Positions 20,622-51,491 of a DNA stretch of 64,000 nucleotides are shown here, piece by piece. The notes below the pieces were generated by a model, which made no database searches, was not told where the DNA came from, and saw nothing but the letters and a program-made list of their open reading frames with translations. Positions within the stretch are counted from its first letter, which is position 1. Every line of letters begins with the position of its first letter. This stretch comes from Candidatus Borrarchaeum weybense (GTDB taxonomy: Archaea > Asgardarchaeota > Sifarchaeia > Borrarchaeales > Borrarchaeaceae). Position numbers and translations under genes: made by a program. The stretch is taken from assembly GCA_019057385.1 (NCBI GenBank), contig JAHQJS010000007.1, positions 416,001 to 480,000 on the forward strand, given 5' to 3'.

Positions 20622-21293
20622 CTACAAAAAGTCAAATCCAATTGATGAGAGAAATCGCAGGAGAACCTTTTTCACATTTTCACCTGAAAGTTCAGAGATG
20701 GGAAACGTGCCCAAGTAACTTGGACGAGTCCATAATTGCAAACGCTTACGTAATTCATGTGCTGGAATAGCCGTCTGAAGATCTTGTTTATTCGCGCAGA
20801 TAATGTATGGTTTTTTGATTTTTGTTTCGATGATGTCAAGTATTCTTCTTGCTTCTTTTAAGTAATTATCATCTGAAGTTTTACACGAGTCAAGAACTAC
20901 AATGACGCCTCGTGCACCAGCCCACCATATATTCCATAGATTTTGGTATCTTTCTTGTCCACCGAGTTCCCAATGTACAAATTCCAGTTCATGTTCATGT
21001 TTATTTGTTCCTGTTTTTCTTAAAGAAAATTTATAAAACGCCACTCCAGGTGTGGGCTTATACACAGACGCTTCTTTTTTGTGATCTTTATCAACGCTAG
21101 AATTTCTTCCAACAGAGGTGGGATTACGCTTGGATGTCTCATAGCCACCCTCATAAGCCTTTCTTTCACCGTTGAAAATTTCTTCGAGACGGCTGCCTAA
21201 CTCTGATTTACCAGCATTTGCTGGGCCCATTAACAATATTTTAATCACGTCTTCTTTTCCAAGTGGCGGTGAACGTTTATCATTAACTGCCAT
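20622..21293 (-). CDS. Small Ras-superfamily GTPase with atypical G3/G5 and a long G1-G2 insertion
   Basis: G1 GPANAGKS, G2 PTPG, G3 WELGGQ, G4 NKQD, G5 SEL. Confidence 0.85.
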   Translation of the reverse strand: MAVNDKRSPPLGKEDVIKILLMGPANAGKSELGSRLEEIFNGERKAYEGGYETSKRNPTSVGRNSSVDKDHKKEASVYKPTPGVAFYKFSLRKTGTNKHEHELEFVHWELGGQERYQNLWNIWWAGARGVIVVLDSCKTSDDNYLKEARRILDIIETKIKKPYIICANKQDLQTAIPAHELRKRLQLWTRPSYLGTFPISELSGENVKKVLLRFLSSIGFDFL

Positions 21294-21814
21294 TCGAATT
21301 CCGCTCTGTATTTATATTATGGGGCTAGCCTTCGTTTTTAGAATAAAAATAGCACCATATTATATAAATCCCATACACAAAGAAGCCTGTTGTTGTTCTA
21401 TTATAGTCGTGGGTCATCATATTCACTCAGTTATTCAAAAACTATCAGTGGTCGCAATAAAGTGGAAAAAATCAGTGATTTTGATCTCTTTCAACTTTAA
21501 AACGCGGCATCTGGCATGACACTCTAGCACCATTATAGGATTGATCTGTTTTTCCATCATATTGCAATTTTTTGTTAAAATATCGGAATGATTGAAGGGC
21601 GGTTTCGTGAAATTCAAGTGGTTTAAACCTGCCTAATTTACCTATACGGGTTCTCTTTATTCTTCTTATCAATTTCGAATTTATAGCGCACTAATTTGCT
21701 TTTCTATTTCTCAAGCATCTAAAAGTATTGATGATAAATTTACCAGAATTTTTATTATTCTTGAGTGAATGGATAATTCGAAGGGAAGTATATACACCAT
21801 AAGGATAAATCAAT

Positions 21815-24800
21815 ATGAGAAAGAATTATATTTTCATCATCGTTCTGATCAGTCTATTAGCATCTAGTATGATTGTTAACGATGCGATGCGTGTTTATGC
21901 TCAGACTGATATTGAGGATTTCGTTGATAACAATTCAAGTGATATAGACACTTCACCAGATATAGGCAATCATTATGATTTTGATAAAGAGAAAGCCAAT
22001 GATTCTGATTTTGATACCTTAAATGAATCCTTAATTGTGACTCCTCCCATAAAAGATTTCGTTGATAACAATTCAAGTGACGTAGATTCTTCTTCGAATT
22101 TAGGGGCGCATTCTAATTTTACAGCCATGCAATATGGTCCAGACTCAATATATGATAACATAACTGAGGTGAATAACGCTGGCATGGTCAATACGACGCT
22201 CATTGATGCAGAATCCTTTGAAGGAGCTTGGCCTCCATCTGATCCATCTGACTGGACTGAAACTGGACGATGGAACAAAGAAAGCGATTTTGTGCCTTCT
22301 GGTGGTGGAACCTATTCAGCGGATATTGAACATTCTGGGGGTTATTATTCAGAGTCAGGAGATTTGATCACCGCTGATTTAGATTGCTCTGATGCGGCAG
22401 CAATATATGTGAGTTTCTATTTTAGAGAAGCCGTTAGCGCGGATACCGAGTTTCAGCTATACTTTTGGAATGGGGCGACGTGGGTTAACATCGAAGATTT
22501 GGGTCAGGGTTATTCGCCAGGTTGGAACCTTTGGGAAATGGAAGTCACCGACAGTCAATATTTCAAGTCAGATTTCAAAATTCGTTGGAGAGCAAATGCG
22601 ATTGAGAGCGGTGAAAACGCGAATGTTGATTTGGTTACCGTAAAAAAGGAAACACCCCTCCCCGATAATTACGCATTAAATTTAGAAGTACAATTTACTG
22701 CAGTTCCCTATTCTCTAGCCAGTGAAACACTCTGTATCTATATGGGTTATAATGGCACTGAAGCTATTAGGGTAGATTATTGGAATGGAACTGGCTGGGA
22801 GAATGTTTTCACGTATTTAAATAACAGTTCTTGGAATAACGCATCAGTCTCAGTAACGAATTCTAATTTTACCATTAGATTTAATGGCACTATAGAATCA
22901 GGTGATACCACGCAGGATTATTATCTGATAGATTGTGTTATTTTGAGACTTGAGGGTGATGGCCATAACGAATTTGTTGTTCAAAATCAAGATTCGGATG
23001 TTGATGGAACTGGGGATGCAGGAGAAATTATTGATTTCTCCAATATGACTGCTTCCGACACTAATATGACCCTTTTGAACGAGACAATTGAAACTGGCGG
23101 CGATCCCAACGAATATTCTATTGATTTGACTGGCGGATATATTAGTTGCGCTACTGCTGATATAGGTGTAGCAGCTGGAACTATTTCATTCTGGATTCAA
23201 TTTGATTCGACAACTTCAGGCAGACCCGTTGGAATGAATGGCAATGAAGAATTAAGACTTAGTAATAGCATTTTATATGCTGATTGGGGAGAAAGCGGAC
23301 CAAGTTTTACTTCTGATACTACCTTTACAATAGGTACATGGTATTTCGTGGCAGTCACATGGGATGAAACAGCAAACGATCTTTTTCTATATGTTGGAAC
23401 AGAAACAACAACACCTTCTTTAGATGCAGGTAGTTCCGCTGCGGGAAGTTGGACAGGAACGACATCAACTATTCCTCAAGCTGCAGTCTATTGGGGAAAT
23501 GGATATGGTTTTTCTGAACCAGTAAATGGGCACATGGATGATATACGTTTTTACGATACAGTAAGAACCTTGAGCGAAATCCGTAGTGATTATAACCAGA
23601 CTCTAACAGGAACTGAAACAGATCTCGTGAATTATTATAAATTAGAGAATGATTATACCGATTCTGCTGCTGGAAATGATGATGGGACTCTTTCTGGCTC
23701 TGGTGCTTTCTCAACCGATGTACCCTCATGGGAGGTTGGTAGTGGTGGTACTAATTTTATTTTAGACCAAGAAGTTCAATGGACTAATATTCCCTCGAAT
23801 TTGCTAAATGAGTATCTATGTATAAAAACGGGAACGTTTTCAGGAACGGAGAAGATATTGGTTGATGCCTGGAATGGAACTGACTGGGAAAACCTCTTTG
23901 ACGATTTGGACGCTAACTGGAATAATGTTTCAATTGCTGATTACCTGACTAGTTCCACTTTTACCATAAGATTTAGGGATGACAACACCACAGAAGATAG
24001 CAGCATTCATGATACATGGGAAATCGATGTTGCACTAATTCACATTTGGAACGAAGACGAGGTTTACAAATTAGACCTAGAGGTTCAATTTGAAGAACCG
24101 CTATTTGCTGATGAATATTTTGAAAAATTATGTATAAAAACAGGAGCATTCTCAGGAATAGAGGATCTTTTAGTTGATGTATGGGATGGTTCACAATGGC
24201 AGGAGGTTCCTGATTTAAATCCATTAAATCCAAATGTTTGGAATAATGCGAGTGTCGCATCATATCTAATAAGCAGTACGGAGAACTTCACAATTCGGTA
24301 TAGGGGAGGTTCTGAGACTTCAGACGATGTACCGGATACATGGCAAATAGATGCTGTTTTACTACATACTTACACTCCATTTGATGATGCGCCCCCAAAC
24401 ATTTCTTGGGGATCAAATCAATTTACAAATGATATAGGAACTCACCAGGTTCATATAGATGTTGACGCAGAAGATATATATTTCGGATCTGGTATTGATA
24501 CGGTTTGGTATCGCATTTGGAACGTTTCATCTGGAATCGAATGGGTTCCTGATCATAATAATGTTTCTTTATCCTTGTCTTCTGGTTATGAGATCGATAT
24601 CAATGTTTCAACTTGGCATCCCTCAACTGAGTACTATGTAGAGGCGTTTGCGACTGACAACTCAGCCCTGAAAAATGAAAATACTACTCAAAATATCACT
24701 GGAGATGAATACAGGTACTTCACGATTGTACACGGCATTGACGTGAGTCAACCAACGGTAACTTACTCGGGGGGTTCAATACAAGAACTAGACATTTCTG

Positions 24801-26410
24801 TTGCAAACGTTAGCTGTAGTTATGCAGCACATGGACCGTTAACTATCAGCAACACCGCACCAGACGTTCATAACTACACAATTTATACTATTGGAGAATT
24901 ATCAACAGGTATTACTGGATTTTTATATCCTTATCAAGAGATGTGGCAAGCTTTCGATGTTGACATCTCTAGTCTGCCTGATGGCGATTATTATGTTCAA
25001 TGCGATTTTGAAGATTCGTGGGGACATACGGGGACAAGCCCCCCTTCCATCAGTTTCACAAAAACAACTGATACCAGCAATGGTGGAGGCAATGGTGGCG
25101 GAGATGGTTCTAGTGATGGAGGTGGTAGCGATGGAACAAGCACGAATACCTTCCTTCTCAATTTCCTGAACAATTTTTACGGCACTAAGCCTGGCCAAAC
25201 AGTAACATTATCAGGAACTATCAGTTCAAATGAAAATGGAAAACTTCTAACGATCACCTTTGAGGGTGAAACGTACACGGCGTATACATTCAATAATGGT
25301 GAATTCGAAGTTACGCTCACGGCACCAAATACCTATGGCAGTTACACTGTTACTGCAAAATTTGCAGGCGATTCAAGCTGGGAAAGTACGAGTACGACTT
25401 GTCAACTCCTTGTTGTAGAAAAAGAAACACAAATGACTATTGATATCGATGGTAACCTAGCTATTGGCGAGCAAATTACGATCCAAACTACCTTGACAAC
25501 AGAAAATGGAGATCTAATGCCTGGTGAGAAGATCACCATCTATATCTATGAGCGAACAAATTCCGTCTCAACTAGTACGCTCTTGACGTCTTCAGGTGTA
25601 AGAGTGTTTTCGGTAGATACACGATATTGGGATTTAATCGCAACATATGAGATTACAACCGATGAGAATGGCAAAGCGACTATTGAGTTGACGATTTCTA
25701 CTGATCAGGATGTACAGATCGTAGCAGAATACGCAGGCAAAATTGAAGGCGAAGGCGGAGAGAACTTAGGTCCATCAATTGTAACATATGTGGAAGGCGA
25801 AACAGGGCCTTTTATTTTAATGTCAAGTGAAATGTTGTATCTTTTCGGAGGAATATTGGCAACAGTCTTAGTGATAGGCTTAATTGTAGTGAAGAAAACG
25901 GATCTCCTTTCAGTTATTATCCAACGGGAGAAAATAGAAGAGACTGTTATACTATCACAAGATCTACTTGATCCAACTCGTTTCGGAATAAAAGCGGTAT
26001 TTATGATTGTGTTTGATCCAGTTATAGGCCCTATGATTAAAGAAAGTCGATTTTTTGATTTTCAAGTTGAGTTTTTCAACGACCTTAAGGATCCTTCAAA
26101 GCTTACACTCTTTTATTCAATGAGTGCAACAAAAGAGCAGTTTAAACTTGAAGAAAAGAATGAACACATTTTTGTAAAATCTGCAACAACATTGATAATC
26201 AATGAAGCAGATATGACAGTTTCTGGCGAAACAGTAGCTCCAAACCTGATCATAGTAATTGCAAAGAAAGGATGTAATGAGAATTTTGTGTGGAAGTTCA
26301 TAAATACAGTCTTGGTAGGATGGTCTGACCATCAGGGATATCTGGTACATCAAATGGATCGTTTGGATTCTGAAAATATGATAGATTTAGGTATCCTCAG
26401 TCTTTTTTAA
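21815..26410 (+). CDS. 1531-aa single-pass surface protein: nested beta-sandwich modules, LamG/ConA-like domain, Ig-like domains, Gly linker, TM, longin/uDENN-like cytoplasmic domain
   Basis: Signal peptide; LamG motifs (TISFWI, WYFVAVTW, GHMDDIRFYD..RTLSEI); TM YLFGGILATVLVIGLIVV; tail with IKAVFMIVFDPVIGP. Confidence 0.8.
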   Translation: MRKNYIFIIVLISLLASSMIVNDAMRVYAQTDIEDFVDNNSSDIDTSPDIGNHYDFDKEKANDSDFDTLNESLIVTPPIKDFVDNNSSDVDSSSNLGAHSNFTAMQYGPDSIYDNITEVNNAGMVNTTLIDAESFEGAWPPSDPSDWTETGRWNKESDFVPSGGGTYSADIEHSGGYYSESGDLITADLDCSDAAAIYVSFYFREAVSADTEFQLYFWNGATWVNIEDLGQGYSPGWNLWEMEVTDSQYFKSDFKIRWRANAIESGENANVDLVTVKKETPLPDNYALNLEVQFTAVPYSLASETLCIYMGYNGTEAIRVDYWNGTGWENVFTYLNNSSWNNASVSVTNSNFTIRFNGTIESGDTTQDYYLIDCVILRLEGDGHNEFVVQNQDSDVDGTGDAGEIIDFSNMTASDTNMTLLNETIETGGDPNEYSIDLTGGYISCATADIGVAAGTISFWIQFDSTTSGRPVGMNGNEELRLSNSILYADWGESGPSFTSDTTFTIGTWYFVAVTWDETANDLFLYVGTETTTPSLDAGSSAAGSWTGTTSTIPQAAVYWGNGYGFSEPVNGHMDDIRFYDTVRTLSEIRSDYNQTLTGTETDLVNYYKLENDYTDSAAGNDDGTLSGSGAFSTDVPSWEVGSGGTNFILDQEVQWTNIPSNLLNEYLCIKTGTFSGTEKILVDAWNGTDWENLFDDLDANWNNVSIADYLTSSTFTIRFRDDNTTEDSSIHDTWEIDVALIHIWNEDEVYKLDLEVQFEEPLFADEYFEKLCIKTGAFSGIEDLLVDVWDGSQWQEVPDLNPLNPNVWNNASVASYLISSTENFTIRYRGGSETSDDVPDTWQIDAVLLHTYTPFDDAPPNISWGSNQFTNDIGTHQVHIDVDAEDIYFGSGIDTVWYRIWNVSSGIEWVPDHNNVSLSLSSGYEIDINVSTWHPSTEYYVEAFATDNSALKNENTTQNITGDEYRYFTIVHGIDVSQPTVTYSGGSIQELDISVANVSCSYAAHGPLTISNTAPDVHNYTIYTIGELSTGITGFLYPYQEMWQAFDVDISSLPDGDYYVQCDFEDSWGHTGTSPPSISFTKTTDTSNGGGNGGGDGSSDGGGSDGTSTNTFLLNFLNNFYGTKPGQTVTLSGTISSNENGKLLTITFEGETYTAYTFNNGEFEVTLTAPNTYGSYTVTAKFAGDSSWESTSTTCQLLVVEKETQMTIDIDGNLAIGEQITIQTTLTTENGDLMPGEKITIYIYERTNSVSTSTLLTSSGVRVFSVDTRYWDLIATYEITTDENGKATIELTISTDQDVQIVAEYAGKIEGEGGENLGPSIVTYVEGETGPFILMSSEMLYLFGGILATVLVIGLIVVKKTDLLSVIIQREKIEETVILSQDLLDPTRFGIKAVFMIVFDPVIGPMIKESRFFDFQVEFFNDLKDPSKLTLFYSMSATKEQFKLEEKNEHIFVKSATTLIINEADMTVSGETVAPNLIIVIAKKGCNENFVWKFINTVLVGWSDHQGYLVHQMDRLDSENMIDLGILSLF

Positions 26411-26542
26411 TTGGAATAAAACGATCTAGCGTGTTTCTGTTTTTTCTGTTTTATCTTTTTTTAAGAAGAAGGGAACAATGGGACAACTGCATTCTCATCA
26501 AATTAAAAAAGGAGTTAGTTGTGTGCTATTTTTCCACTTCAT

Positions 26543-26947
26543 AAGATTACCTCAAGGAGACCCCCCAACGTGTTGGGGAGAGAAATTGAGGTCAGGTATT
26601 TGACCATACAACCCTTTCTGCGGGGACAGGGGTTGGTGTACCCGATCTCGGGTGGTGTTTTAATGACGGGTACTCTCAAGTTCCGTCGCTCCCAACACCA
26701 GGGAGTTGGTTCTCTTCGCCAAGGTTATCAGTCAGTATTATACGGTGATCACTGAGAGTTTCCTCTCTGTTTAAACCACCGTTTACAGAGCAAGGGACTA
26801 GAGAAGCATCCCTTGGTGTGTTCTTTAACTCTCCTGGTAACGTAGATACCGCCATGGTTGTTTCACCACGACCTCTCTTAGGCTAATCAACCAATTGCCC
26901 TTGATCCTCACGGAACAAGCCCCTTAACAAGTTAAGGGGTGATTGAC
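26543..26947 (+). mobile_element. 405-bp non-coding IS200/IS605 miniature (IscB lineage), inserted 3' of TTCAT
   Basis: LE hairpin GACCCCCCAACGTGTTGGGG, nearly identical to the LE of the tnpB element; RE hairpin CCCCTTAACAAGTTAAGGGG ending TTGAC. Excision restores EEGYEVEK*. Confidence 0.85.
26640..26947 (-). ncRNA. Stand-alone IscB-type omega-RNA (HEARO-like)
   Basis: Minus strand reads GTCAATCACCCC...GGGGCTTG...GTTGATTAGCCTAAG...CTACGTT...ACACCAAGGGATGCTTCTCTAGTCCCTTGCTCTG...TTAAACA...AACCTTGGCGAAGAGAAC, matching HEARO landmarks in order. No IscB (PLMP/HNH) ORF follows. The 3' limit is approximate. Confidence 0.8.
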
Positions 26948-27060
26948 AACCTTCTTCTTCCCACTCATGTATCCTATGTTTGAGGCTTTTCACATTTCTA
27001 TAGCCGTATGCTTTTAGAAATAGTGTTGCATGAGCACTCTATGACCACTTCCGGCAATAT

Positions 27061-27180
27061 GTGAGCTACCTCGTGCTAAAGCATCGAGGCTTCCTGCTTC
27101 TACGACAGACTCGATCCCCTTGCGGGTTACAGAGGGGTTATCTCCACAGGCGTAAATCCCCTACGCCCCGTAGGTACTCA
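27061..27180 (-). ncRNA. Stand-alone TnpB-type omega-RNA; predicted guide ATATTGCCGGAAGTGGTCAT
   Basis: GTACCTACGGGGCGTAGGGGATTTACGCCTGTGGAGA...GTCGTAGAAGCAGGAAG followed by the RE hairpin, typical of IS605-type right-end RNAs. TTTATATA box at ~27203-27210 upstream. Confidence 0.7.
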
Positions 27181-27265
27181 TAGGGGATATTACAAAAAAA
27201 ACTATATAAACACCATACAATTCATCATTAGGCCAAAGCATTGGTGCTTTCTTGCTTAATTGTCT
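27061..27265 (-). mobile_element. 205-bp non-coding IS200/IS605 miniature (TnpB lineage), inserted 3' of TTAC
   Basis: RE GAAG-CCTCGATGCTTTAGCACGAGG-TAGCTCAC; degenerate LE (GCAAGAAAG...GATGAATTG). Excision restores EIIT-YC. Confidence 0.8.
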
Positions 27266-27458
27266 GTAATAATTTCAGTATCTTTGTCCTTAGAGTACGA
27301 GTTTTTTTAAAAAAAATATATTTAAAGTAAAAACTTGAGAAAATTGTTTTATAACAAGATTGATCTTCGAATATCGCAGTTATTATCGCGATTTTCTCAG
27401 ATCACTAAAGAATAATTGATCATTGAATTTTTGATTCACGGCTTAAGCGTGAGGTAGT

Positions 27459-40739: not shown

Positions 40740-40843
40740 TGGACTAGTCCTCTTAATTTAAGTGTTTTTTGTTCTGTATCATAAAAAAAGAGAGGTTTTG
40801 AAATATTTCTCTAGATTGTTCAAGTACCTACTAAAAGCCTATT

Positions 40844-41041
40844 TCATGTGTAAAGATGTTCAGGGGGTTTATTTACTCCAAATATTCTGATAAATTCTTT
40901 ATGCACGTAGAGTGGCTTAAATTCATACATTATCAGATTCCAATCGATCATTTCTCTAATGAAATATTTCATTTCGAGTTTAAATGAAATATCATCATCC
41001 TCAAACCATTTAATATATGGCGCTGGAGGCAAAGATATCAC
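40844..41041 (-). CDS. Small hypothetical protein
   Basis: GTG start preceded by AAGGTGA; fills the gap downstream of 41109..42455. Confidence 0.45.
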   Translation of the reverse strand: MISLPPAPYIKWFEDDDISFKLEMKYFIREMIDWNLIMYEFKPLYVHKEFIRIFGVNKPPEHLYT

Positions 41042-41108
41042 TTTTCATCACCTTCATTGTTTATATTGCTTGAAATCGATATAAGTTGATACAAGTTTGA
41101 TTGCGAAA

Positions 41109-42455
41109 TTATCTAATCATCAATTTTTCGAATTCTTCCATTTTATCTAACAAAGTAATCCGAAGTTCTTGTAGCATCGTTCTATACTCTCTAAGAGTAG
41201 AAACTAAATTCGCTTGGATATTTACAAGTGAAACTTGTTCTTCCTTTAGTGTTCTGAGTTTATCACCTAAATCTTTGGAAGAGTTCTCCAACATCTTCTT
41301 AACACCAACTAATGTACTTGAGTCTAATGAAGTACTTTGTGTTGGTAAAGCTGAAATAATCGTCTTTTTTGTATTGTCTATATCTAAAGATATTGCTTCT
41401 AGATTTTTTGTTAACCTATCAACATATGCAATTTTTAAGCTATCAATCGTTGAATGTAATGTTTTGAGACTTTCTTCGGAATCGCTACTTACTGTACTAA
41501 AGCTTTTTATTAATTGATCCAATGAATCATTTACTCGGCCTTCTAGAACCTCAAATCGACTTGAAAGTTCATCTCTTAATGTTTCAAATTTCCAGTGGAT
41601 CGTGTCATAAATCTCAGAGATCTTTTTACCTGATTCTAATTGATTTTCCTGGGCTTTATTAAAATCAGCTACTAATTCACTTAAGATAGTGTATGTTTTT
41701 TCGAATTCATCTAATTGACTTGAAAATTCTGCCGTATATGTGTCTCTCATATTTTGAATGTTTTGATTCGCTGACTTCAAGTTCTCAATAATTTTATCTC
41801 TTGATTCAGTAGATTCAATTATCATCTGTCTTAAATTCTCAAGAACAGTATCTTCTGTTGCTTTAAAGCGATTTAACATGCTGGTATCTAAATTTGACAC
41901 TTCTTTGGAAATCCTTTGGTCAAGTGCTACTAAATTTGCAGTTAGTTCTGTTTTGTCTATACCATATCCTTTAGTATGTTCTTCAAAGACTGTAGAAAGG
42001 TTTTCAGTCATAGAAATCATTTTTTCTAGTTGAGTGCCGGTGTTATTCCTAACATCATCAAGTTTAGCAACTAAATCTATCTTCAGCTTGTCAATCCCTT
42101 GAGAAGTCTCTTTCTTGATAAGCGAAATTTGGTTTTGAGTATCCTCATTATGAGAGCTCAATTCAGTAAATTGGGATTTCAATAATTCAACTGTTTGGCC
42201 AATCTTTTTTTCTAATTGATCAGTCTGACTTAGTATATCTTTACGAAGTCTGCCAGTTTTTACGGCGCGACTCTTATTATATTTCTCCATCGTTTTCATT
42301 ATTTCATTTAACGTCTTATTTATTTTATCAAGAGTTGTTCCGTTCTTACTAACATCTTTTTCTACCTTTTCTATCCGTTTAATGATATCAACCATTTTAC
42401 TTTCGATTAGGTCATCTTCGCCTTGTTTTTCTTTCGACGACAAGTATCTCACCAA
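41109..42455 (-). CDS. Long coiled-coil/helical protein
   Basis: Heptad-rich, E/K/L/S-rich, almost proline-free; no enzyme motif seen. Confidence 0.7.
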   Translation of the reverse strand: MVRYLSSKEKQGEDDLIESKMVDIIKRIEKVEKDVSKNGTTLDKINKTLNEIMKTMEKYNKSRAVKTGRLRKDILSQTDQLEKKIGQTVELLKSQFTELSSHNEDTQNQISLIKKETSQGIDKLKIDLVAKLDDVRNNTGTQLEKMISMTENLSTVFEEHTKGYGIDKTELTANLVALDQRISKEVSNLDTSMLNRFKATEDTVLENLRQMIIESTESRDKIIENLKSANQNIQNMRDTYTAEFSSQLDEFEKTYTILSELVADFNKAQENQLESGKKISEIYDTIHWKFETLRDELSSRFEVLEGRVNDSLDQLIKSFSTVSSDSEESLKTLHSTIDSLKIAYVDRLTKNLEAISLDIDNTKKTIISALPTQSTSLDSSTLVGVKKMLENSSKDLGDKLRTLKEEQVSLVNIQANLVSTLREYRTMLQELRITLLDKMEEFEKLMIR

Positions 42456-42655
42456 TTCAAATTAAACTTAACTTTGAGTATTTTACTATAATTTTTTGTA
42501 TTCTATTTTGGATTTTTTGATAGAACAGAAATTCACATAACTATTTACTTGCTAAGATCTATTTCTACTGAGTCTAACCTTTAAAAACTAAATAGACAGA
42601 TCAATATAATATCCAATTCGTTAACTTGATGTAGAAATTTTTGTAGTTCCTATTT

Positions 42656-44125
42656 GTGATTATAATGAAACACAGTCGTATAATTTACAGGATATCTTGC
42701 CTATTTATTATCATTGGATTGATGCTATGTTCATGCACAGTCCATGCTGTGTTCTCAATAGATGGTTCGCAATCCAATTCTACATCGATAATTTCAAATG
42801 ACGTAAGCGATCACCCTAAAAGCTCCACAACTGTGTCATCAATTAAATTCTGTTCTTATGTTAAGGGAACTGGTAGTTATACAGAGGTTGACGATGCTAT
42901 CTTTACACCAAATGGTCGGTTGTTTATTTACTTTGAAATCTATGATGCTTTTCGACATCAAATTACAACTACTATTACTGTAACAGCCCCAGATGGTTCA
43001 ATCTATCTTGAGGAAACAGAAAAAGAAAGTCCACTTTTTTATACTTATGCAAAGTGGTGGGAAAAAGAAATTGATAGCTTTGACTTTAATGGGGAATATC
43101 GAGTACAAATTCAAGTTACTGACAGAACTAAAAACCAAAACTTCATTGAAACAGGATCCTTTTTTGTTCGTGATGCTGCACCTTTAATTGCAATAACTAT
43201 GGAAGATCTTCCTGTGCAAATGGGCATAGGTACTTATCAGAGAATAAAAGTTAATCTCTATAACTTGGATCCGAGCTTCGTTGGAACGTCTACTATAACT
43301 GTTCGTCTGTCAGGTTCTGCTTTTGGTTTTCCTGATGGCAATGCAAGAGCCATCACATTGGGACCCAATGAGCGCCGTGATATTTATTTCACTGTTATTC
43401 CAAATAGTTTTGGAATAAAAACCCTTCGTGTTGAAATTCTGTTTAAAGAAAATGTGATTTCATATGAGGATTACTCCATTTCAGTTACCGTTGGGTACAT
43501 ATATGCAATTCCAATTGCAGCTATTATTGGAATCATTTTAATCTTCTTCTTTAAAAGATCGAAGCCACAGATTCAAATTACTGAGATGAAAAGTAGTGTT
43601 ATCTCGTCTATAGACGAATCTGATGAACAAGATGTCATAAAAGATGACATTCTACCGAGAGATATTTCTAAAGAAATTACAGAACCTTCACCTACTGAAA
43701 CGATATTACTTAACAGAGAAATGCTCTCAAAGTCTCCTATAGATCATCAATATGAAGATTCTAATACAAAAAAATATTTTGAGTTAGATACAACAGCAAA
43801 GGACACACATAAGAAACTTGTTAAATCATTAATTAAGCATAAGAAGGAAGCAGAAGGTATCAAGCTCCCTAAAATAGAAAAAGAAATTCTGAAGAAAGAA
43901 ATTCTATGTGCAAATTGTGGTAATTTAATGCCTGAAGGTACGTCAATCTGTCCCGCATGCCAGTCGGATCAGATTTCATGCCCTATTTGCTTAAGACCTA
44001 TTATTTTTGGTGAGACGATAATCAAATGTTCTTATTGTGGAGTTTTTTCTCACGAAGATCATTACATTCAATGGGTAGCTACAAAAGGATATTGCCCTAA
44101 ATGTAAAACAAAAATAAGGGGTTAA
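42656..44125 (+). CDS. Type I membrane protein with two Ig-like domains, TM, linker, Zn ribbon and C-terminal RING-like finger
   Basis: Signal peptide; TM YIYAIPIAAIIGIILIFFF; CANC..CPAC, then CPIC-x12-CSYC-x4-H-x2-H-x3-W-x6-CPKC. Confidence 0.82.
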   Translation: MIIMKHSRIIYRISCLFIIIGLMLCSCTVHAVFSIDGSQSNSTSIISNDVSDHPKSSTTVSSIKFCSYVKGTGSYTEVDDAIFTPNGRLFIYFEIYDAFRHQITTTITVTAPDGSIYLEETEKESPLFYTYAKWWEKEIDSFDFNGEYRVQIQVTDRTKNQNFIETGSFFVRDAAPLIAITMEDLPVQMGIGTYQRIKVNLYNLDPSFVGTSTITVRLSGSAFGFPDGNARAITLGPNERRDIYFTVIPNSFGIKTLRVEILFKENVISYEDYSISVTVGYIYAIPIAAIIGIILIFFFKRSKPQIQITEMKSSVISSIDESDEQDVIKDDILPRDISKEITEPSPTETILLNREMLSKSPIDHQYEDSNTKKYFELDTTAKDTHKKLVKSLIKHKKEAEGIKLPKIEKEILKKEILCANCGNLMPEGTSICPACQSDQISCPICLRPIIFGETIIKCSYCGVFSHEDHYIQWVATKGYCPKCKTKIRG

Positions 44126-44144
44126 GATAGATTATTTCTTCATT

Positions 44145-47100
44145 CTAGTCGCTTTTAAAGAATGTTAGTTGCAAATGTTTTTCTTCTTTACTCCAAATAA
44201 ATGTTCCATCGATTTCTAGTCTCTGAAGTAGTACTAAGCGAAAAATCAACTTCAGTATGGATTCTCTTGAGAAATTATACTTACTAGTAAGTATTTCAAC
44301 TGTTGATTGTACACCGTTACAATTCAATTCTTTCAAAAGACTTTCAGTAGAGTTTACAACAGTGTTTAAGGCAGTTTTGTTAAGATTCAAACAATCACAA
44401 AGCGCAACAAAAGCTTCTTCAAATTTTTCTGCATCTATTAGAGCTCTTCCTTTTAATAGAGCTTTCTCAATTTCTCCAGAATACTCTTTAGAGATATTAA
44501 ATTTCAGAATGTCAAAATCTTTTAGGATTTCCTGTATACGAGCAGTTGTTTGCTGGGAATTTTTATAGAGATCTTTTAAGAAGAGTAATGCGTGTTCATC
44601 AATTTCTTCTTTACCATCCGCACTTTTTCTTTGATTAATGATCTCTTCATACTGTTCCTTCACAAGAGCATTTTCTAATTCAGAAAACAGTGACTCTTGA
44701 GCTTCTAATTGTGTTTCTAAATCAAGAGTTTGTGACAACGTAGGTGACTTTTCGATAAATCTTTTAATATACTCCACTGATTTTTGTATCGCTTTTATTG
44801 TCTCTTTTGCGTCCTTCTGAATCATAAGTCTTTTCTGTATTTCCTTGTAGCCCTCGACGAATTCTTTTTCGTCTTTTAACATTTCAAATTGTTTTGTCGC
44901 ATTATTATAGTATTTCTCAGCCTTTTGTATTGCGAAAATTGTAGCATAATCGCTCGCTAAATCTAAATTTTTAGAAATTTCATTGATCTGTGATAATATC
45001 TTTTCTTTCAAAGGATCATTAAGTGCAATTTTTGATAAGTATTCATCCTCAATTGCTTGGATTTCTTCAATCTCTTTGATTACTGAATCCATTAAGTTAT
45101 TTCTTTTCTCAGAAATGAGTTTAATTCTGTTTTCTAGATTTGTTAACCTTTTTTCTATTGATTTATAGCGTATGAGTTTCTCAATGACTGGTGAATAGTT
45201 TATTTGTTCAATATGTGTCTGTAAACTTAACAATTTATCTTGAAACAAATTCAACAACTGGCCTGGCAAATCTTTTTTTATTCTTTCAATTTCTTCAAGA
45301 AGCATAGTCTTTTTCGCTTCAGGTTGAACATCATGGTAATAAGGTCTCGGGATCTGTTCATCTCTAATTATTACTCCTTTTCCTTCCATGAGTTGAAGCA
45401 AATATGCTACGTTTGTAGAACGTGAAGGGACACAAAAGAAATTACGACTGAGTTCAGAGATGCCTAGCGCTCCTTCGCTTTCAGCTAATAGATTATAAAG
45501 CTTGTCTTCCCACACTGTGCTTGTTTTAAATCGAAACTTTTCATTAATGTTCTCCAAGAGACCCATTTGAACAAGGTTTTCAATCCATTGTTTGCATGCC
45601 TTCTTATCAACCGTTATTTTTTTGGCATCTTCTAATTCAAACAAATCAGTCAGAAAGTTATTTGCTAGTTTGCCAATTTCTTGGCCCATTTTTTTTCCAA
45701 TCCATAAGTTTGGAAGGATTAGACCAATCTTTTTCAAATCTTCAATCATTCTTGCAGAAGACATGGCAATTTTAAGACGATCCTCTAATTCTTGTACGAC
45801 TTCTTTCTTTACATCTGCTGTTAAGCCTTTACTATTAAGTTTCATTATATGATGAAATGTTTGATCATCTAGTTCTCTTACTAATAGCAAACGACTAATC
45901 GGAACTTCTCGATATGTTTTTCTGTATTGATCTGAAATAACCGGCCCTCTAGAAAGAATAAATGTGAAGTCTGATTTCCTTTCCGTCATAGCGTCAAGTA
46001 TTTTAAGTTTATTAAATTTTAAAGAAAGCATCGTTGATTTTATGCTTTCCTTTGAAAGATTAACACAAATCAATACCTTTGAGCTAATACTTGGATTCTC
46101 TTTTGTACTAAATTCGAGAGAGAACACTGCTTTGCTATCATCAAGAGTAGAAACTTTGCCAAAATTAACTGATCCAAATATAGTCTGGAAATAATTCTTA
46201 AAACTTGATATTGCAGCTTCAATAGATACTTCTGGTTCAAGTATGACTGAAGATTCATCCTTCTGGAGCTCTACAGTAGTTAATATTGGTTGTTTCTTTC
46301 TTTTTGATACTTCTTCAAATTTTATCCCACTTCGTATGAATTGACGTTTCACTACTCCTTCTGTTATCTCCTGAATCTTCTCTAAAGCGGCTTTGTAAAT
46401 TAGAATTTGACAAGCTTTGAGTACTCGTCTTGAGTTGCCTTTCAAACTCTCATGAATGAAATGAATTGCATCATCTGAAAATGGATAACATCCTTCAATT
46501 TCTGCAGTTCGTGTGCTTGATAAATAGGAAAGAATCAATTGTTGAGTATCATCTGCAGAAATAAGAGGCGGGACTTCTATATGATATAAGAACCGCTCAG
46601 GCAACGCTTTTTGAAATCTAGATACTGCATATTGCCAGGCTTGAGGAGAAACTGACAAAGTAATCATAAACGGAATGTGGTGAATTTCAGTTCCTTTGTG
46701 ATAGATGCGCCCTATATTATCCAAGAACTCACGAAAGTCGTGTAATCGTGCCTCACGCTTCTCTAACCCTATAACAAGCAGTTCTTGTTCAACTTCATCA
46801 AATGCTAAATGAATGAAGTTATATTTTAGACGCTCGACTAGATTCTTACCAACTAAATTCAGAATCATTGTTTTTCTAAGAAGTTCGTTATTAATATTAG
46901 AAATAAAGCCTGATTTTGTTACTTCTTTGATTATTTTTTCAGTGATTTCTTTATCCGAGGGGTCTACAATATTTGGTAAGTTTTCTAAAATTTGAGTTAG
47001 CTGATCTTTGAAAGATCCTTTAAATACATGCCGTAGTCCAAGTCCTTTGATTTCAGCAGGAAAACCCTCAGCATCGTAGTTTAAATTGCCTTCTCGTAAT

Positions 47101-47321
47101 TCTTGATTAAATTTCATTAGTAATGTTGTCTTACCAACACCAAAATCTCCATGAAGTGCTAAGGCTCCTGGTTTTCCATGTAAAGAAACATTTATTGCAA
47201 GATCCTTTAAAGCAGACATTGCCCCTTTTTGGGCTGTCGTCAAAGTAAAAATATTTGATAATCCACTGGGAAGAATAGGAAAAGGATTTTCATTTAGATA
47301 AAATATTTTGTAGGGATTAAT
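44145..47321 (-). CDS. Large AAA+/P-loop ATPase with winged-helix-like and coiled-coil C-terminal regions; probable ATT start
   Basis: Walker A GDFGVGKT, Walker B HLAFDE, ALPERF, lid YPFSDDAI...GNSRRVLKAC. The frame extends 26 codons upstream (INPYKIFYLNENPFPILP) behind GGGGGGT. Confidence 0.78.
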   Translation of the reverse strand: MNPYKIFYLNENPFPILPSGLSNIFTLTTAQKGAMSALKDLAINVSLHGKPGALALHGDFGVGKTTLLMKFNQELREGNLNYDAEGFPAEIKGLGLRHVFKGSFKDQLTQILENLPNIVDPSDKEITEKIIKEVTKSGFISNINNELLRKTMILNLVGKNLVERLKYNFIHLAFDEVEQELLVIGLEKREARLHDFREFLDNIGRIYHKGTEIHHIPFMITLSVSPQAWQYAVSRFQKALPERFLYHIEVPPLISADDTQQLILSYLSSTRTAEIEGCYPFSDDAIHFIHESLKGNSRRVLKACQILIYKAALEKIQEITEGVVKRQFIRSGIKFEEVSKRKKQPILTTVELQKDESSVILEPEVSIEAAISSFKNYFQTIFGSVNFGKVSTLDDSKAVFSLEFSTKENPSISSKVLICVNLSKESIKSTMLSLKFNKLKILDAMTERKSDFTFILSRGPVISDQYRKTYREVPISRLLLVRELDDQTFHHIMKLNSKGLTADVKKEVVQELEDRLKIAMSSARMIEDLKKIGLILPNLWIGKKMGQEIGKLANNFLTDLFELEDAKKITVDKKACKQWIENLVQMGLLENINEKFRFKTSTVWEDKLYNLLAESEGALGISELSRNFFCVPSRSTNVAYLLQLMEGKGVIIRDEQIPRPYYHDVQPEAKKTMLLEEIERIKKDLPGQLLNLFQDKLLSLQTHIEQINYSPVIEKLIRYKSIEKRLTNLENRIKLISEKRNNLMDSVIKEIEEIQAIEDEYLSKIALNDPLKEKILSQINEISKNLDLASDYATIFAIQKAEKYYNNATKQFEMLKDEKEFVEGYKEIQKRLMIQKDAKETIKAIQKSVEYIKRFIEKSPTLSQTLDLETQLEAQESLFSELENALVKEQYEEIINQRKSADGKEEIDEHALLFLKDLYKNSQQTTARIQEILKDFDILKFNISKEYSGEIEKALLKGRALIDAEKFEEAFVALCDCLNLNKTALNTVVNSTESLLKELNCNGVQSTVEILTSKYNFSRESILKLIFRLVLLQRLEIDGTFIWSKEEKHLQLTFFKSD

Positions 47322-47636
47322 GAATTGACCCCCCGTAATTTTTTAACAATTACCCGTCTTTACGTTTGTCAAGGTATTATCTAAGTATATCGCGTATCAA
47401 TATAATCAATATCCCCATAGTATTATAATCTTACGATTTTCGTAAGGACTTCTAAATACTGAATTTAGAAAATCGCTAATTTTTCTGCACCAAAATAAAA
47501 ATTTCTTATAATCTACTAAAAATCAATCTTGTTTTGATTTTGTATTTTGATCTTACCTTAATTCCAAAGTTGTGTTAGCTTAACTCGGCTTTTTCTTAGA
47601 AATAGCTCAGTTTTTTGATTTAATTCTTCGTGAAAT

Positions 47637-48218
47637 TTATCTATCAATCATCAGCGAGTCTCTCACTTTACTTTCCCTAATTTTAGCTTTATTCTTTTGT
47701 GCTTGTTCTACTAGCATATTATTTAGTGTTCTAAAAATAAATTCTACATTTTCCCCTGTTTTTGCTGATGCTTCGAAAAATGGACAGTCTATTTCCTTTG
47801 CTATCTTTTCTCCTTCTTTCGAAGAAATTATCCTTGCTTCCTCTAAATCCGATTTATTTCCAACCAGTATGATAGGTATCCCTGCGCTGTGCTTTTTCAC
47901 TTCTTGATACCATTTTTTGACATTCTTGAATGATCCCTCATTTGTAATATCATAGACTATTAACGCACCTCGAGCTCCTTGAAAATAATGAGAACGTATA
48001 TTTGTAAAACGTTCTTGTCCCCCAGTATCCCAAATAAATAACCTCGTCTGGATATCTTCAATAGTGTACCTCTTGATCCTAAAATCAACTCCGATTGTAA
48101 CTTTATAATTTTCAACAAAGACTTTTGTAGTACATCTTAAACTAAGTGCAGTTTTTCCAACGCTTCCATCGCCTACAATGATTACTTTGAAAATATAGCT
48201 CATCGGATACTTTTCCAC
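47637..48218 (-). CDS. Rab-like small GTPase
   Basis: GDGSVGKT, TIGVDF, IWDTGGQERF, YFQGA, IVYDIT, NKSD, SAK; no C-terminal Cys. Confidence 0.92.
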   Translation of the reverse strand: MEKYPMSYIFKVIIVGDGSVGKTALSLRCTTKVFVENYKVTIGVDFRIKRYTIEDIQTRLFIWDTGGQERFTNIRSHYFQGARGALIVYDITNEGSFKNVKKWYQEVKKHSAGIPIILVGNKSDLEEARIISSKEGEKIAKEIDCPFFEASAKTGENVEFIFRTLNNMLVEQAQKNKAKIRESKVRDSLMIDR

Positions 48219-50014: not shown

Positions 50015-50050
50015 ATATTTTTACGTGAAATAAATTAAATCATTTCACGA

Positions 50051-51445: not shown

Positions 51446-51491
51446 AAACCGCCTCTTTTCCTTATACTTAACGCTTATTCTTTAATTCATG

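What the first reader, a model, noticed from the sequence alone, without database searches (positions are those of the whole stretch)
20622..48218. Candidate Asgard receptor-GTPase-RING signalling locus
Seen: a 28-kb block starts and ends with small GTPase genes. Between them, apart from the IS relics and one 65-aa ORF, it holds three single-pass surface proteins with distinct cytoplasmic tails (longin/uDENN-like; solenoid-Zn ribbon-RING-PCI-like; Zn ribbon-RING), a TPR protein, a coiled-coil protein and a large ATPase, with no metabolic genes. Known: longin/DENN domains regulate small GTPases, RING domains act as E3 ligases, and PCI domains scaffold complexes in eukaryotes; Asgard genomes encode these domains. 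Inference: they may form a transmembrane signalling or membrane-remodelling module coupling extracellular binding to GTPase switching and ubiquitin-like tagging.
Basis: partly seen in the sequence, partly recalled or inferred. Interest (0 to 1): 0.85.

Follow-up and report, generated by a model that had tools for sequence, protein, structure and literature searches.

The report
Asgard surface receptors with longin/RING tails
They are separate parts lying together in a variable, genus-specific stretch rather than one conserved signalling machine, although the longin-GTPase link and the membrane-anchored RING family are each worth testing.

Summary
All nine genes are present as described. The framing does not exceed chance. 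About 38 small GTPases sit in 4.18 Mb, so a neighbour within 27 kb is expected 20-35% of the time. "No metabolic genes" holds only because an MBL-rhodanese gene between S1 and S2 was destroyed by IS insertions.

Domain calls mostly hold:
- The S1 tail models as a longin fold (pLDDT 73, Z 9.7).
- The S3 finger is a true RING-H2 relative. The S2 finger lacks one ligand.
- PCI and TPR stay sub-threshold.

The locus is not a conserved module. The run from S2's 5' end through TPR, o65, CC, S3 and ATPase to G2 is syntenic only within the genus. TPR and ATPase were not found in the other class genomes, nor the ATPase in 400 Asgard genomes. G1 is missing beside the closest full-length S1 ortholog.

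Two smaller links stand:
- G1-family Arf-like GTPases form a class-wide operon with a protein whose longin domain is homologous to the S1 tail.
- The RING tails belong to a mostly membrane-anchored RING family found in 196 of 400 Asgard genomes, related to the ubiquitin-ESCRT cluster RING.

Unchecked notes from this scan describe similar surface-longin-GTPase sets in other Asgard genomes.

The parts
20622..21293 (-). G1: Arf-like small GTPase (223 aa). It has motifs GPANAGKS, PTPG, WELGGQ and NKQD, and a ~25-aa insert after the P-loop helix. It is a divergent member of a class-specific family.
   Evidence: Pfam Arf 4.2e-15. Alignment A4 with 11 paralogs and orthologs at 37-43% identity. No ortholog in genome or metagenome collections.
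21815..26410 (+). S1: type I surface protein (1531 aa). It has a signal peptide, a LamG domain, one 108-aa VWYRIxN module shared with S2, Ig-like domains, a Gly/Ser stalk and a TM helix at residues 1341-1363.
   Evidence: Full-length ortholog at 85% identity in L043.
25904..26407 (+). S1 cytoplasmic tail (residues 1364-1531): longin-fold domain.
   Evidence: AF2 on alignment A3 gave pLDDT 73, pTM 0.70 and topology b-b-a-b-b-b-a-a. Foldseek top hits were SEA-complex and GATOR1 complex chains, Ego3, Ragulator, MglB and Ykt6. VIA Z was 9.7 to 8.3 for LAMTOR, VAMP7, Sec22b, AP sigma and zeta-COP. hhalign to the 253-aa operon family gave 92.6%, E 4.6e-7. Only 7 hits among 1.84e9 representatives. 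No Pfam hit.
26528..27104 (-). Relic of an MBL-fold plus rhodanese gene, interrupted by IS200/605-type leftovers that include a HEARO (IscB omega) RNA at 26705-26947.
   Evidence: Rfam HEARO 129.6 bits. tblastn of the intact L043 and L040 gene matches only 26949-27104. The ...YEVEK stop lies at about 26528.
27459..38120 (-). S2: giant surface protein (3553-aa ORF; the likely start is Met82, which begins a signal peptide). It has about 18 tandem 108-aa repeats, 5 copies of a second ~110-aa repeat, and a TM helix at residues 3187-3208.
   Evidence: The start at Met82 is my inference from the sequence.
27462..28496 (-). S2 cytoplasmic tail (residues 3209-3553): helical TPR/SNAP-like repeats, a zinc ribbon, a RING-like finger with 7 of 8 ligands (27705-27836), and a C-terminal winged-helix-like region.
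   Evidence: All Pfam matches are sub-threshold: TPR_2 1e-4, DZR 8e-5, zf-RING_2 1e-4 (22.9 versus 27.3 bits), DDRGK 1.6e-4, PCI 2.2e-3. PDB hits: Arkadia 0.0065, DDRGK1 homolog 0.41. In-genome phmmer to S3, C5:229320 and C4:124201.
38502..40739 (+). 745-aa all-helical protein, probably TPR-like, restricted to the genus.
   Evidence: No Pfam hit at 0.01. Atlas features score 0.93 with TPR clusters, at low recognition. Orthologs at 74-75% identity in L036 and L038. Found only in G003 among the five genomes of its order.
40844..41041 (-). 65-aa conserved small gene lying 67 bp downstream of the coiled-coil gene.
   Evidence: tblastn finds the full length at 69-74% identity in L036 and L038.
41109..42455 (-). 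448-aa coiled-coil protein, divergent from S3 across a 200-bp gap.
   Evidence: Apolipoprotein-type low-complexity coiled-coil hits only. Orthologs at 51-68% identity.
42656..44125 (+). S3: type I membrane protein (489 aa). It has a signal peptide, an ectodomain, a TM helix near residues 280-300, a charged linker, a zinc ribbon and a complete C4H2C2 RING (43976-44107).
   Evidence: zf-RING_2 scores 29.7 bits against a cut-off of 27.3 when the finger is scanned alone. Orthologs at 71-75% identity keep the same neighbours.
44145..47243 (-). 1032-aa P-loop ATPase (Walker A GDFGVGKT) of the AAA_22 / Orc1-like / BrxD-like class, with a long helical C-terminal half.
   Evidence: Pfam NACHT, AAA_16 and AAA_22 all sub-threshold. 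Atlas features 0.96 with 200 shared. No PADLOC hit. Apart from the ortholog in genus genome G003, 400 Asgard genomes gave only three weak hits near E 1e-6.
47637..48218 (-). G2: Rab/Ras-like small GTPase (193 aa), co-directional with the ATPase (393-bp gap) and with the upstream sugar-modification operon (83-bp gap).
   Evidence: Pfam Ras 9.9e-57. Ortholog at 76% identity in the same position in L036.

Best explanation
The 28-kb stretch is a genus-specific, rearrangement-prone region. Several independent membrane-signalling genes lie side by side in it. It is not one co-evolved system.

What is shown:
1. S1 is a type I surface protein whose cytoplasmic tail is a longin-fold domain. The domain belongs to a family restricted to this Asgard class, as far as the searches reached.
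2. The soluble 253-aa member of that family is encoded in a conserved operon directly behind an Arf-like GTPase of the same family as G1.
3. S2 and S3 carry C-terminal zinc-ribbon plus RING modules. These belong to a mostly membrane-anchored RING family found in about half of the sampled Asgard genomes. The family's small soluble member sits next to ubiquitin in the ubiquitin-ESCRT cluster.

What is inferred:
1. The S1 tail docks or regulates an Arf-like GTPase at the membrane, with G1 as the local candidate. This would work as longin domains do in SRX-SRbeta, adaptor sigma or zeta-COP with Arf1, and NPRL2 with Rag.
2. S3, and perhaps the partly degenerate S2, act as membrane-anchored E3 ligases using the genome's E1 and E2 enzymes and ubiquitin, by analogy with eukaryotic transmembrane RING-H2 ligases.

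The helical 745-aa protein, the coiled-coil protein with its 65-aa partner, the ATPase and G2 are real genes under purifying selection. No evidence beyond shared descent ties them to the receptors.
For: Longin tail:
- AF2 model with longin topology.
- Among the 50 Foldseek rows shown, and nearly all of the 50 VIA rows, the matches are longin/roadblock-fold proteins or complexes containing them; top Z is 9.7.
- hhalign of the S1-tail family against the 253-aa family gives 92.6%, E 4.6e-7. Alignment A3 extends across the whole domain.

GTPase-longin operon:
- The GTPase gene lies immediately upstream of the 253-aa gene in G000 (two copies), G001, G002, G003 and G005, which is a different family in the class.
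- Two S1 orthologs are followed at 18-52 bp by a Rab-like GTPase.

RING tails:
- The profile hits RNF4 (1e-7), RNF24, EL5, Arkadia, Hrd1, gp78 and RNF13.
- 18 of 19 members hit zf-RING_2.
- In-genome paralogs are C5:229320 (signal peptide, TM, zinc ribbon, RING) and C4:124201, which lies beside ubiquitin, JAB, UEV, Vps28 and EAP30.
- 196 of 400 Asgard genomes carry the module. Most sampled frames have TM segments by a crude hydropathy scan.
- The genome has four E2 genes, two of them adjacent to E1-like genes.
- An Asgard E1/E2/RING cascade has been reconstituted in vitro (bioRxiv 10.1101/2023.07.25.550441).

Not one module:
- TPR was not found in G001, G002 or G004.
- The ATPase was not found in G001, G002, G004 or G005; 400 phylum genomes gave only G003 plus three weak hits.
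- G1 is unique to this genome and missing in L043.
- Sugar-operon homologs sit in other contexts in G001.
- The block has at least seven transcription units.
- A metabolic gene relic lies between S1 and S2.
Against: - S2's 5' end, TPR, o65, CC, S3, ATPase and G2 keep the same order in at least four species-level lineages at 50-76% protein identity. Some functional linkage among them therefore cannot be excluded.
- Three divergent gene pairs could share regulatory regions: G1<>S1, S2<>TPR and CC<>S3.
- A second TM-RING gene, C5:229320, also has a divergent coiled-coil neighbour.
- S1 and S2 are the only genes in the genome carrying the 108-aa VWYRIxN module.
- No binding or enzymatic activity was tested.
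- The longin model rests on a shallow alignment of 22 rows, and Z of about 9 is only moderately above background.
- The S1 paralog and the 437-aa longin family have no GTPase neighbours.
Confidence: 0.55

Rival explanations
1. The whole block is one integrated transmembrane system in which surface binding by S1, S2 and S3 is coupled to GTPase switching (G1, G2) and RING-dependent tagging. The TPR, coiled-coil and ATPase proteins would serve as scaffold and motor.
For: - The order from S2's 5' end to G2 is kept in four lineages down to about 70% identity.
- The divergent promoter pairs could allow co-regulation.
- S1 and S2 share a unique ectodomain module.
- Domain identities are compatible with the model.
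Against: - Synteny is limited to one genus, where it is expected by descent.
- TPR and ATPase were not found in a 100%-complete congener, nor the ATPase in the sister family or in 400 Asgard genomes.
- G1 is absent from the closest full-length S1 ortholog locus, and other S1 orthologs carry a different GTPase on the other side.
- The flanking GTPases are within chance expectation.
- S1 and S2 were separated by a now-destroyed metabolic gene.
Confidence: 0.12
2. The block is a variable cell-surface (adhesin) island. S1, S2 and S3 are mainly adhesion or S-layer-associated glycoproteins. Their tails serve anchoring, sorting or turnover of the proteins themselves, for example self-ubiquitylation for ESCRT-dependent removal. 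No signal is passed to neighbouring gene products.
For: - The ectodomains are huge, repetitive and rich in N-x-S/T, and relatives' assemblies break inside the S2 repeats.
- IS relics sit at the S1/S2 junction.
- The region is rearranged among congeners.
- The RING paralog sits in the ubiquitin-ESCRT cluster.
Against: - The longin tail is better conserved than a simple anchor needs: 66-79% identity in the tail, with 41 invariant positions.
- The tail is homologous to a domain that is operonic with a GTPase.
Confidence: 0.2
3. The genus-specific core (helical 745-aa protein, coiled-coil plus 65-aa protein, BrxD/Orc1-like ATPase) is a conflict or defence-type NTPase system that happens to lie among surface-protein genes.
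For: - Atlas features place the ATPase N-half near AAA_22/BrxC_BrxD clusters at 0.94-0.96.
- The phyletic range is narrow and the region is variable.
Against: - No PADLOC model matches the ATPase. Only coiled-coil-type weak hits were found for the CC and helical proteins.
- No nuclease or other effector domain was found.
- No integrase or phage genes lie nearby.
- These proteins evolve at the same rate as the adjacent sugar-operon genes.
Confidence: 0.07

Closest known systems
Longin-domain partners of Arf/Rag-type GTPases: SRalpha SRX with SRbeta, adaptor sigma or zeta-COP with Arf1, NPRL2/NPRL3 of GATOR1 with RagA, Ragulator LAMTOR with Rag
   Same: - The S1 tail model has the b-b-a-b-b-b-a-a longin core.
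- Its best structural matches are these proteins or complexes containing them.
- A homologous domain is encoded in an operon with an Arf-like GTPase.
- NPRL2-like longin domains and their fusions are already noted as abundant in Asgard (bioRxiv 10.1101/2020.10.19.343400).
   Different: - Here the longin domain is the C-terminal tail of a 1531-aa type I surface protein.
- It has no sequence match to any Pfam longin family.
- No Arg finger is conserved across the family (alignment A3).
- Binding is untested.
- A published survey states that small GTPase genes of the Asgard strain MK-D1 are generally not in operons with longin or roadblock genes (PMC10933270). The operon found here is therefore unusual.
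Eukaryotic transmembrane RING-H2 E3 ligases: PA-TM-RING family (RNF13, RNF128/GRAIL), RNF24, Hrd1/synoviolin, gp78/AMFR
   Same: - S3 has the same layout: signal peptide, ectodomain, one TM helix, then a cytosolic RING-H2-type finger.
- The profile of the Asgard finger hits RNF24, Hrd1, gp78 and RNF13 among solved RINGs.
   Different: - There is no PA domain.
- The ligand pattern is C4H2C2 (C-x2-C-x12-C-x2-C-x4-H-x2-H-x10-11-C-x2-C) rather than C3H2C3.
- A zinc ribbon precedes the RING.
- S2 lacks the sixth ligand.
- E3 activity is untested.
- This is an analogy of architecture. Orthology is not shown.
Small RING E3 of the Asgard ubiquitin-ESCRT gene cluster; the biochemically reconstituted Asgard cascade is from Helarchaeia
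   Same: - The in-genome 127-aa RING protein beside ubiquitin, JAB, UEV, Vps28 and EAP30 matches the S3 tail (6e-8) and the S2 RING region (8.5e-7) by phmmer.
- It has the same C4H2C2 pattern with the H..HLxEW and CPxC motifs.
   Different: - S2 and S3 are membrane proteins with large ectodomains.
- They lie far from the ubiquitin cluster, on a different contig.
- Their substrates are unknown.
Prokaryotic RING finger family 1 (Pfam PF14446 Prok-RING_1) and TackOD1 (PF18551)
   Same: 18 of 19 family members hit Prok-RING_1, best E 3.9e-8. Some members hit TackOD1.
   Different: The window proteins' own scores are below the curated cut-offs, and zf-RING_2 fits better. TackOD1 was defined as an output domain of two-component systems, which are not present here.

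Membership tests
Longin domain (fold class) | b1-b2-a1-b3-b4-b5-a2-a3 topology with a five-stranded sheet between helices | tested here: met
   The AF2 model of S1 residues 1380-1531 has E13-22, E26-34, H48-60, E63-67, E71-78, E98-105, H110-122 and H128-141, with pLDDT 73.
Longin domain (fold class) | Structural similarity to solved longin domains that stands above other folds | tested here: inconclusive
   VIA Z is 9.7-8.3 for both roadblock (LAMTOR) and longin (VAMP7, Sec22b, AP sigma, zeta-COP) chains, and these are tied. The Foldseek best E is 1.1e-3. Z of about 9 is only moderately above the tool's stated background of 7-8.
Longin domain (fold class) | Sequence match to a curated longin family | tested here: not met
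   No Pfam family matches the S1 tail at E up to 5. None matches the 253-aa or 437-aa relatives. There is no PDB sequence hit.
Longin domain (fold class) | Binds a small GTPase | not testable with these tools
   This needs pull-downs or nucleotide-exchange and GTPase assays. The only indirect support is the conserved operon of the homologous 253-aa protein with a G1-family GTPase.
DENN-family GEF (uDENN-DENN-dDENN) | A central DENN and a downstream dDENN domain following the longin-like uDENN | tested here: not met
   The tail is only 168 aa and ends after the longin core. There is no Pfam DENN hit.
RING-type E3 ligase finger | Eight Zn ligands in cross-brace spacing | tested here: met
   S3 has C-x2-C-x12-C-x2-C-x4-H-x2-H-x11-C-x2-C. 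Seven ligand positions are invariant across 19 diverse members, and the eighth (the second His) is in 18 of 19. S2 is the exception, with Leu at the sixth ligand, so the feature is not met for S2.
RING-type E3 ligase finger | Score above the curated Pfam threshold for a RING model | tested here: met
   The S3 finger alone scores 29.7 bits on zf-RING_2 against a cut-off of 27.3, and 18 of 19 family members match. The S2 tail scores 22.9 bits, below the cut-off.
RING-type E3 ligase finger | Homology to RINGs of proven E3 ligases | tested here: met
   The profile hits RNF4 at 1e-7, RNF24 at 2e-7, EL5 at 3.7e-7, and Arkadia, RNF165, Hrd1 and gp78.
RING-type E3 ligase finger | E2 binding and ubiquitin transfer | not testable with these tools
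   The genome does encode ubiquitin, four UQ_con proteins and E1-like ThiF proteins adjacent to two of them.
PCI domain | Helical-repeat N-part followed by a winged helix that matches PCI profiles | tested here: inconclusive
   For S2 tail residues 274-336, Pfam DDRGK scores 21.8 bits (cut-off 27.8) and PCI scores 18.6 bits (cut-off 22). The PDB DDRGK1 homolog 1wi9 hits at E 0.41.
TPR protein (745-aa gene) | Repeated 34-residue TPR motifs detected by profile | tested here: inconclusive
   The best Pfam TPR hits have E of 0.05 or worse. Atlas features score 0.93 to TPR clusters, but with low recognition.
Conserved multi-gene system (gene-neighbourhood criterion) | The same gene families are co-located in distantly related genomes | tested here: not met
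   The order is kept only within the genus. TPR was not found in G001, G002 or G004, nor the ATPase in those, in G005 or in 400 phylum genomes. G1 is unique, and G1 is absent in L043.

The most novel reading that the evidence does not exclude
S1-type proteins may be receptor-coupled regulators of Arf-like GTPases. An extracellular lectin/Ig ectodomain would be wired through one TM helix to a longin domain that recruits or switches a G1-family GTPase. In parallel, the membrane-anchored ZnR-RING family (S2, S3 and hundreds of relatives) would be a pre-eukaryotic set of transmembrane ubiquitin ligases that feed surface proteins into the ubiquitin-ESCRT pathway. Together these would show that receptor-to-GTPase and receptor-to-ubiquitin wiring existed in Asgard archaea before eukaryotes.
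Probability: 0.2. Interest if true: 0.8.

Novelty: new variant of a known kind. Interest (0 to 1): 0.5.

Why it matters
Asgard genomes hold dozens of small GTPases and longin or roadblock proteins. Published work says the genome layout rarely tells which regulator goes with which GTPase (PMC10933270).

This genome offers a matched, testable pair: an Arf-like GTPase in an operon with a longin protein. It also offers a homologous longin domain placed on the inside of a surface receptor, with a paralogous GTPase next door.

Separately, a C-terminal RING module that is mostly membrane-anchored, multi-copy and found in about half of the sampled Asgard genomes is related to the RING of the ubiquitin-ESCRT cluster. 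That gives concrete candidates for how ubiquitin tagging could reach membrane proteins in the closest archaeal relatives of eukaryotes.

The negative result also matters. The 28-kb locus itself should not be treated as one system.

Tried and rejected
- Single-sequence AF2 of the S1 tail gave an unusable model with pLDDT 38.
- Complex prediction of G1 with the S1 tail returned "no answer", with a score of 0.00 and the controls not run. This is evidence neither for nor against binding.
- The exhaustive search with the S1 tail found only 7 proteins. One, a 3236-aa adhesin on a contig with bacterial-type neighbours, matched through 9 short repeats and was set aside as spurious.
- The profile search for the 253-aa family found only 19 close relatives, so no deeper alignment was possible.
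- Pfam, NCBIfam and PADLOC gave nothing above threshold for the 745-aa, 448-aa, 65-aa and 1032-aa proteins.
- G1 searches in genome contigs and metagenome contigs found no ortholog.
- The 570-aa gene downstream of G2 was not found in G001-G005, so the syntenic position in congeners could not be defined.
- CC_448 against the 724-aa coiled-coil neighbour of the third TM-RING gene showed no detectable homology, E 0.41.
- A literature search for transmembrane RING proteins in Asgard returned nothing specific.
- A uDENN reading was rejected because no DENN core follows the longin domain.
- A mobile-island reading for the whole block was considered. Apart from the IS/omega relics at 26.5-27.3 kb, I saw no integrase or tRNA. 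The higher GC of 22-38 kb coincides with the S1 and S2 genes and may reflect their ectodomain repeat composition; this was not tested.

Full report
**Setting.** The window is G000:C7:416001-480000 of a 4.18-Mb Asgard (Promethearchaeota) genome in 8 contigs. Its GTDB class holds only six species genomes, and its order holds five, all in one genus. The genome has 37 Pfam Ras-family matches. My own HMM found 42 GTPase-like ORFs, about 38 of them clear small GTPases, with 14 on the 905-kb contig C7.

**Observation.**
- G1 (20622-21293, minus strand) is Arf-like.
- S1 (21815-26410, plus strand) has a signal peptide, a LamG domain, Ig-like domains, one TM helix and a 168-aa tail.
- S2 (27459-38120, minus strand) has about 18 tandem 108-aa repeats, five repeats of a second type, one TM helix and a 345-aa tail.
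- S3 (42656-44125, plus strand) has a signal peptide, one TM helix and a 190-aa tail.
- Between them lie a 745-aa helical protein, a 65-aa ORF, a 448-aa coiled-coil protein and a 1032-aa P-loop ATPase.
- G2 (47637-48218, minus strand) is Rab/Ras-like.
- The IS relics include a full HEARO (IscB omega) RNA at 26705-26947 without an IscB ORF.

The 65-aa ORF is a real gene. It is conserved over its full length at 69-74% identity in two other species.

**Is the pattern more than chance?** No.
- At the observed GTPase density, a second GTPase within 27 kb is expected with probability of about 0.2 genome-wide and 0.34 on contig C7. At least six tighter GTPase groups exist in the genome.
- The absence of metabolic genes is partly an artefact. 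In relatives (L039, L040, L043 and probably L008), an MBL-fold plus rhodanese gene lies convergent to S1. In the window only residues 326-377 of about 382 survive, at 26949-27104. The last codons (YEVEK-stop) sit near 26528, and IS/omega elements are inserted between them.
- The block has at least seven transcription units on alternating strands.

**The S1 tail.**
- Pfam finds nothing.
- An exhaustive phmmer scan of 1.84 billion representatives finds only seven proteins. In five the domain is the C-terminal tail of a large protein with Ig, LamG or other surface-type domains. One is an 82-aa fragment, and one match to a bacterial-type adhesin was set aside.
- Within the genome there is one paralog (C7:30802-35778, 1658 aa). 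Weaker matches go to the N-termini of two 252-aa and two roughly 430-aa proteins.
- Profile-profile comparison of the tail family with the 253-aa family gives 92.6% probability, E 4.6e-7. A joint alignment runs across the whole domain.
- With that alignment AF2 gives pLDDT 73 and pTM 0.70, with topology b-b-a-b-b-b-a-a.
- Foldseek's best 50 rows are longin/roadblock-fold proteins or complexes that contain them: the SEA complex, GATOR1 complexes, Ego3, Ragulator, MglB, Ykt6, zeta-COP and a DENND10-containing complex.
- VIA-align gives Z of 9.7-8.3, with roadblock and longin chains tied.

I accept a longin-type fold at moderate confidence. I reject the uDENN label because no DENN core follows the domain.

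**The GTPase link.**
- G1's closest relatives are 183-198-aa Arf-like GTPases (WELGGQ, NKQD) at 37-43% identity.
- In G000 (two near-identical copies), G001, G002, G003 and the sister-family genome G005, such a GTPase gene is immediately followed by the 253-aa longin-like gene. This is a conserved operon, and it is the best independent evidence that this longin family works with this GTPase family.
- It is notable because a published survey found that small GTPase genes of strain MK-D1 are generally not in operons with longin or roadblock genes (PMC10933270).

For S1 itself the picture is mixed.
- G1 lies head-to-head with S1 across a 521-bp gap, but G1 has no ortholog in any collection searched.
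- The closest full-length S1 ortholog (L043, 85% identity) has the racemase-gene homolog directly upstream and no G1.
- Two other orthologs (L039, L040) are followed at 52 and 18 bp by a Rab-like GTPase that is missing in the window.
- The S1 paralog and its orthologs sit next to Memo and helicase genes, with no GTPase nearby.

Small GTPases are about 1-1.5% of genes. Two independent adjacencies among about five orthologs is therefore more than I would expect by chance, by my rough post hoc estimate of order 1e-2. The partner is not fixed.

**The RING tails.**
- S3 has a complete C-x2-C-x12-C-x2-C-x4-H-x2-H-x11-C-x2-C finger preceded by a zinc ribbon.
- S2 has the same layout but Leu at the sixth ligand and Tyr in place of the Trp. 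This agrees with an earlier first-reader note.
- Scanned alone, the S3 finger passes Pfam zf-RING_2 at 29.7 bits against a cut-off of 27.3.
- In a 19-member alignment that also includes 16 sequences from other Asgard genomes, 18 hit zf-RING_2 and 18 hit Prok-RING_1.
- The family profile hits RNF4, RNF24, EL5, Arkadia, RNF165, RNF126, Hrd1, gp78 and RNF13 among solved structures.
- In the genome, the module also occurs in a third single-pass receptor-like protein (C5:229320-230483) and in a 127-aa protein at C4:124201-124584.
- The latter lies beside ubiquitin, a JAB deubiquitinase, a UEV/E2-like protein, Vps28 and an EAP30 protein. This is the ubiquitin-ESCRT cluster, whose RING E3 has been shown active in another Asgard class (bioRxiv 10.1101/2023.07.25.550441).
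- Four UQ_con genes exist, two of them adjacent to E1-like genes.
- Across 400 Asgard genomes, 196 have the module at E of 1e-6 or better, with up to 13 matches per genome. Most sampled frames show one or more hydrophobic TM-like segments upstream of the RING by a crude hydropathy threshold.

S2 and S3 are therefore members of a large, mostly membrane-anchored RING family. The PCI-like end of S2 remains a sub-threshold winged-helix hint.

**Conservation of the locus.**
- DNA and protein searches find TPR, CC, S3 and ATPase on one 7.9-kb contig of G003, at about 90% nucleotide identity.
- Look-ups of S3 orthologs show the order S2 5' end, TPR, o65, CC, S3, ATPase, G2 and the sugar operon in a near-identical assembly (L037, 99-100%) and in a species at about 75% identity (L036). 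L038, at about 70% identity, shows the same order as far as its contig reaches, into the ATPase.
- The block's proteins diverge at about the same rate as the neighbouring sugar-operon enzymes: 50-76% against 68-73% identity. They are therefore real, constrained genes.
- TPR and ATPase were not found in G001, G002 or G004 (the last scored 100% complete), and the ATPase was not found in G005. Among 400 phylum genomes only G003 and three weak ATPase hits near E 1e-6 appeared.
- Homologs of the sugar genes sit in unrelated contexts in G001.
- Relatives' contigs break inside the S2 repeats, so adjacency of G1-S1 to S2 cannot be checked elsewhere.

Synteny within a genus is expected by descent and does not show selection for linkage.

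**Other genes.**
- The ATPase has Walker A GDFGVGKT and only sub-threshold AAA_16, AAA_22 and NACHT matches. Language-model features place it near archaeal AAA_22/Orc1-like and bacterial BrxC/BrxD-like clusters at 0.94-0.96. PADLOC finds nothing for it.
- The 745-aa protein resembles TPR clusters by features only.

I give a defence or conflict reading low odds.

**Small links worth recording.**
- S1 and S2 are the only genes in the genome with the 108-aa VWYRIxN ectodomain module, at 42-44% identity.
- The third TM-RING gene also has a divergent coiled-coil neighbour, as S3 does, but without detectable homology.

**Verdict.** The most useful products are:
- the conserved Arf-like GTPase plus longin operon, with its receptor-fused relative;
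- the phylum-wide family of membrane-anchored ZnR-RING proteins tied to the ubiquitin-ESCRT RING.

Unchecked notes of this scan report similar surface protein, longin and Arf/Rag GTPase sets in other Asgard genomes. This fits the narrower reading but is not independent evidence.

Noticed in passing
window 26705-26947 (-), with flanks 26528-27295: A complete HEARO (IscB omega) RNA at 129.6 bits, with no IscB ORF. It sits inside the remains of an MBL-rhodanese gene that is intact in relatives. The same short elements (window about 26536-26950 and 27060-27270) recur many times in all four congeners.
   Followed up: partly
G000:C3:144637-146692 and G000:C7:209132-211187: Two near-identical copies of a three-gene run: a 183-aa Arf-like GTPase, a 252-aa longin-like protein and a 259-aa protein that I read from its sequence alone as a corrinoid (B12-binding) protein. 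This is either a segmental duplication or assembly redundancy (contamination is estimated at 7%). The GTPase-longin pair is conserved across the class.
   Followed up: partly
G000:C4:124201-128987 (L031:4201-8987): A ubiquitin-ESCRT cluster containing a small RING, ubiquitin, a JAB protease, a 338-aa coiled-coil protein, a UEV/E2-like protein, Vps28 and EAP30. It is preceded by two FIST-domain genes.
   Followed up: partly
G000:C7:223999-225312 and G000:C5:16591-17877: A third architecture of the same longin-like domain: proteins of about 430 aa with the domain at the N-terminus and an uncharacterised C-terminal half. They are conserved in G001, G003 and G004 and have no GTPase neighbour.
   Followed up: no
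window 40844-41041 (-): The 65-aa ORF downstream of the coiled-coil gene is conserved at 69-74% identity over its full length in two other species. It is therefore a genuine small protein gene of unknown function.
   Followed up: yes
window 27459-38120 (-), protein residues 1-110: The longest ORF of S2 starts at a TTG and includes two hydrophobic segments before the first repeat. A start at Met82 (MRFTKLRILTLSLVLLL...) would give a normal signal peptide, so the annotated length may be about 80 residues too long.
   Followed up: no
L043:4951-6291: In the closest S1-ortholog contig, a 447-aa multi-copy gene occupies the place of the window's LarA-like gene (18475-19590). It is 81-82% identical to two copies elsewhere in G000 and is probably a transposase. 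This is further evidence that the region is rearrangement-prone.
   Followed up: no
window 48302-54889 (-): A sugar-modification operon downstream of G2, with a 570-aa protein, a UDP-sugar dehydrogenase, a GFO/IDH/MocA oxidoreductase, PIG-L and others. It is syntenic with the block in L036, but its genes lie in other contexts in G001. The 570-aa protein was not found in G001-G005.
   Followed up: partly
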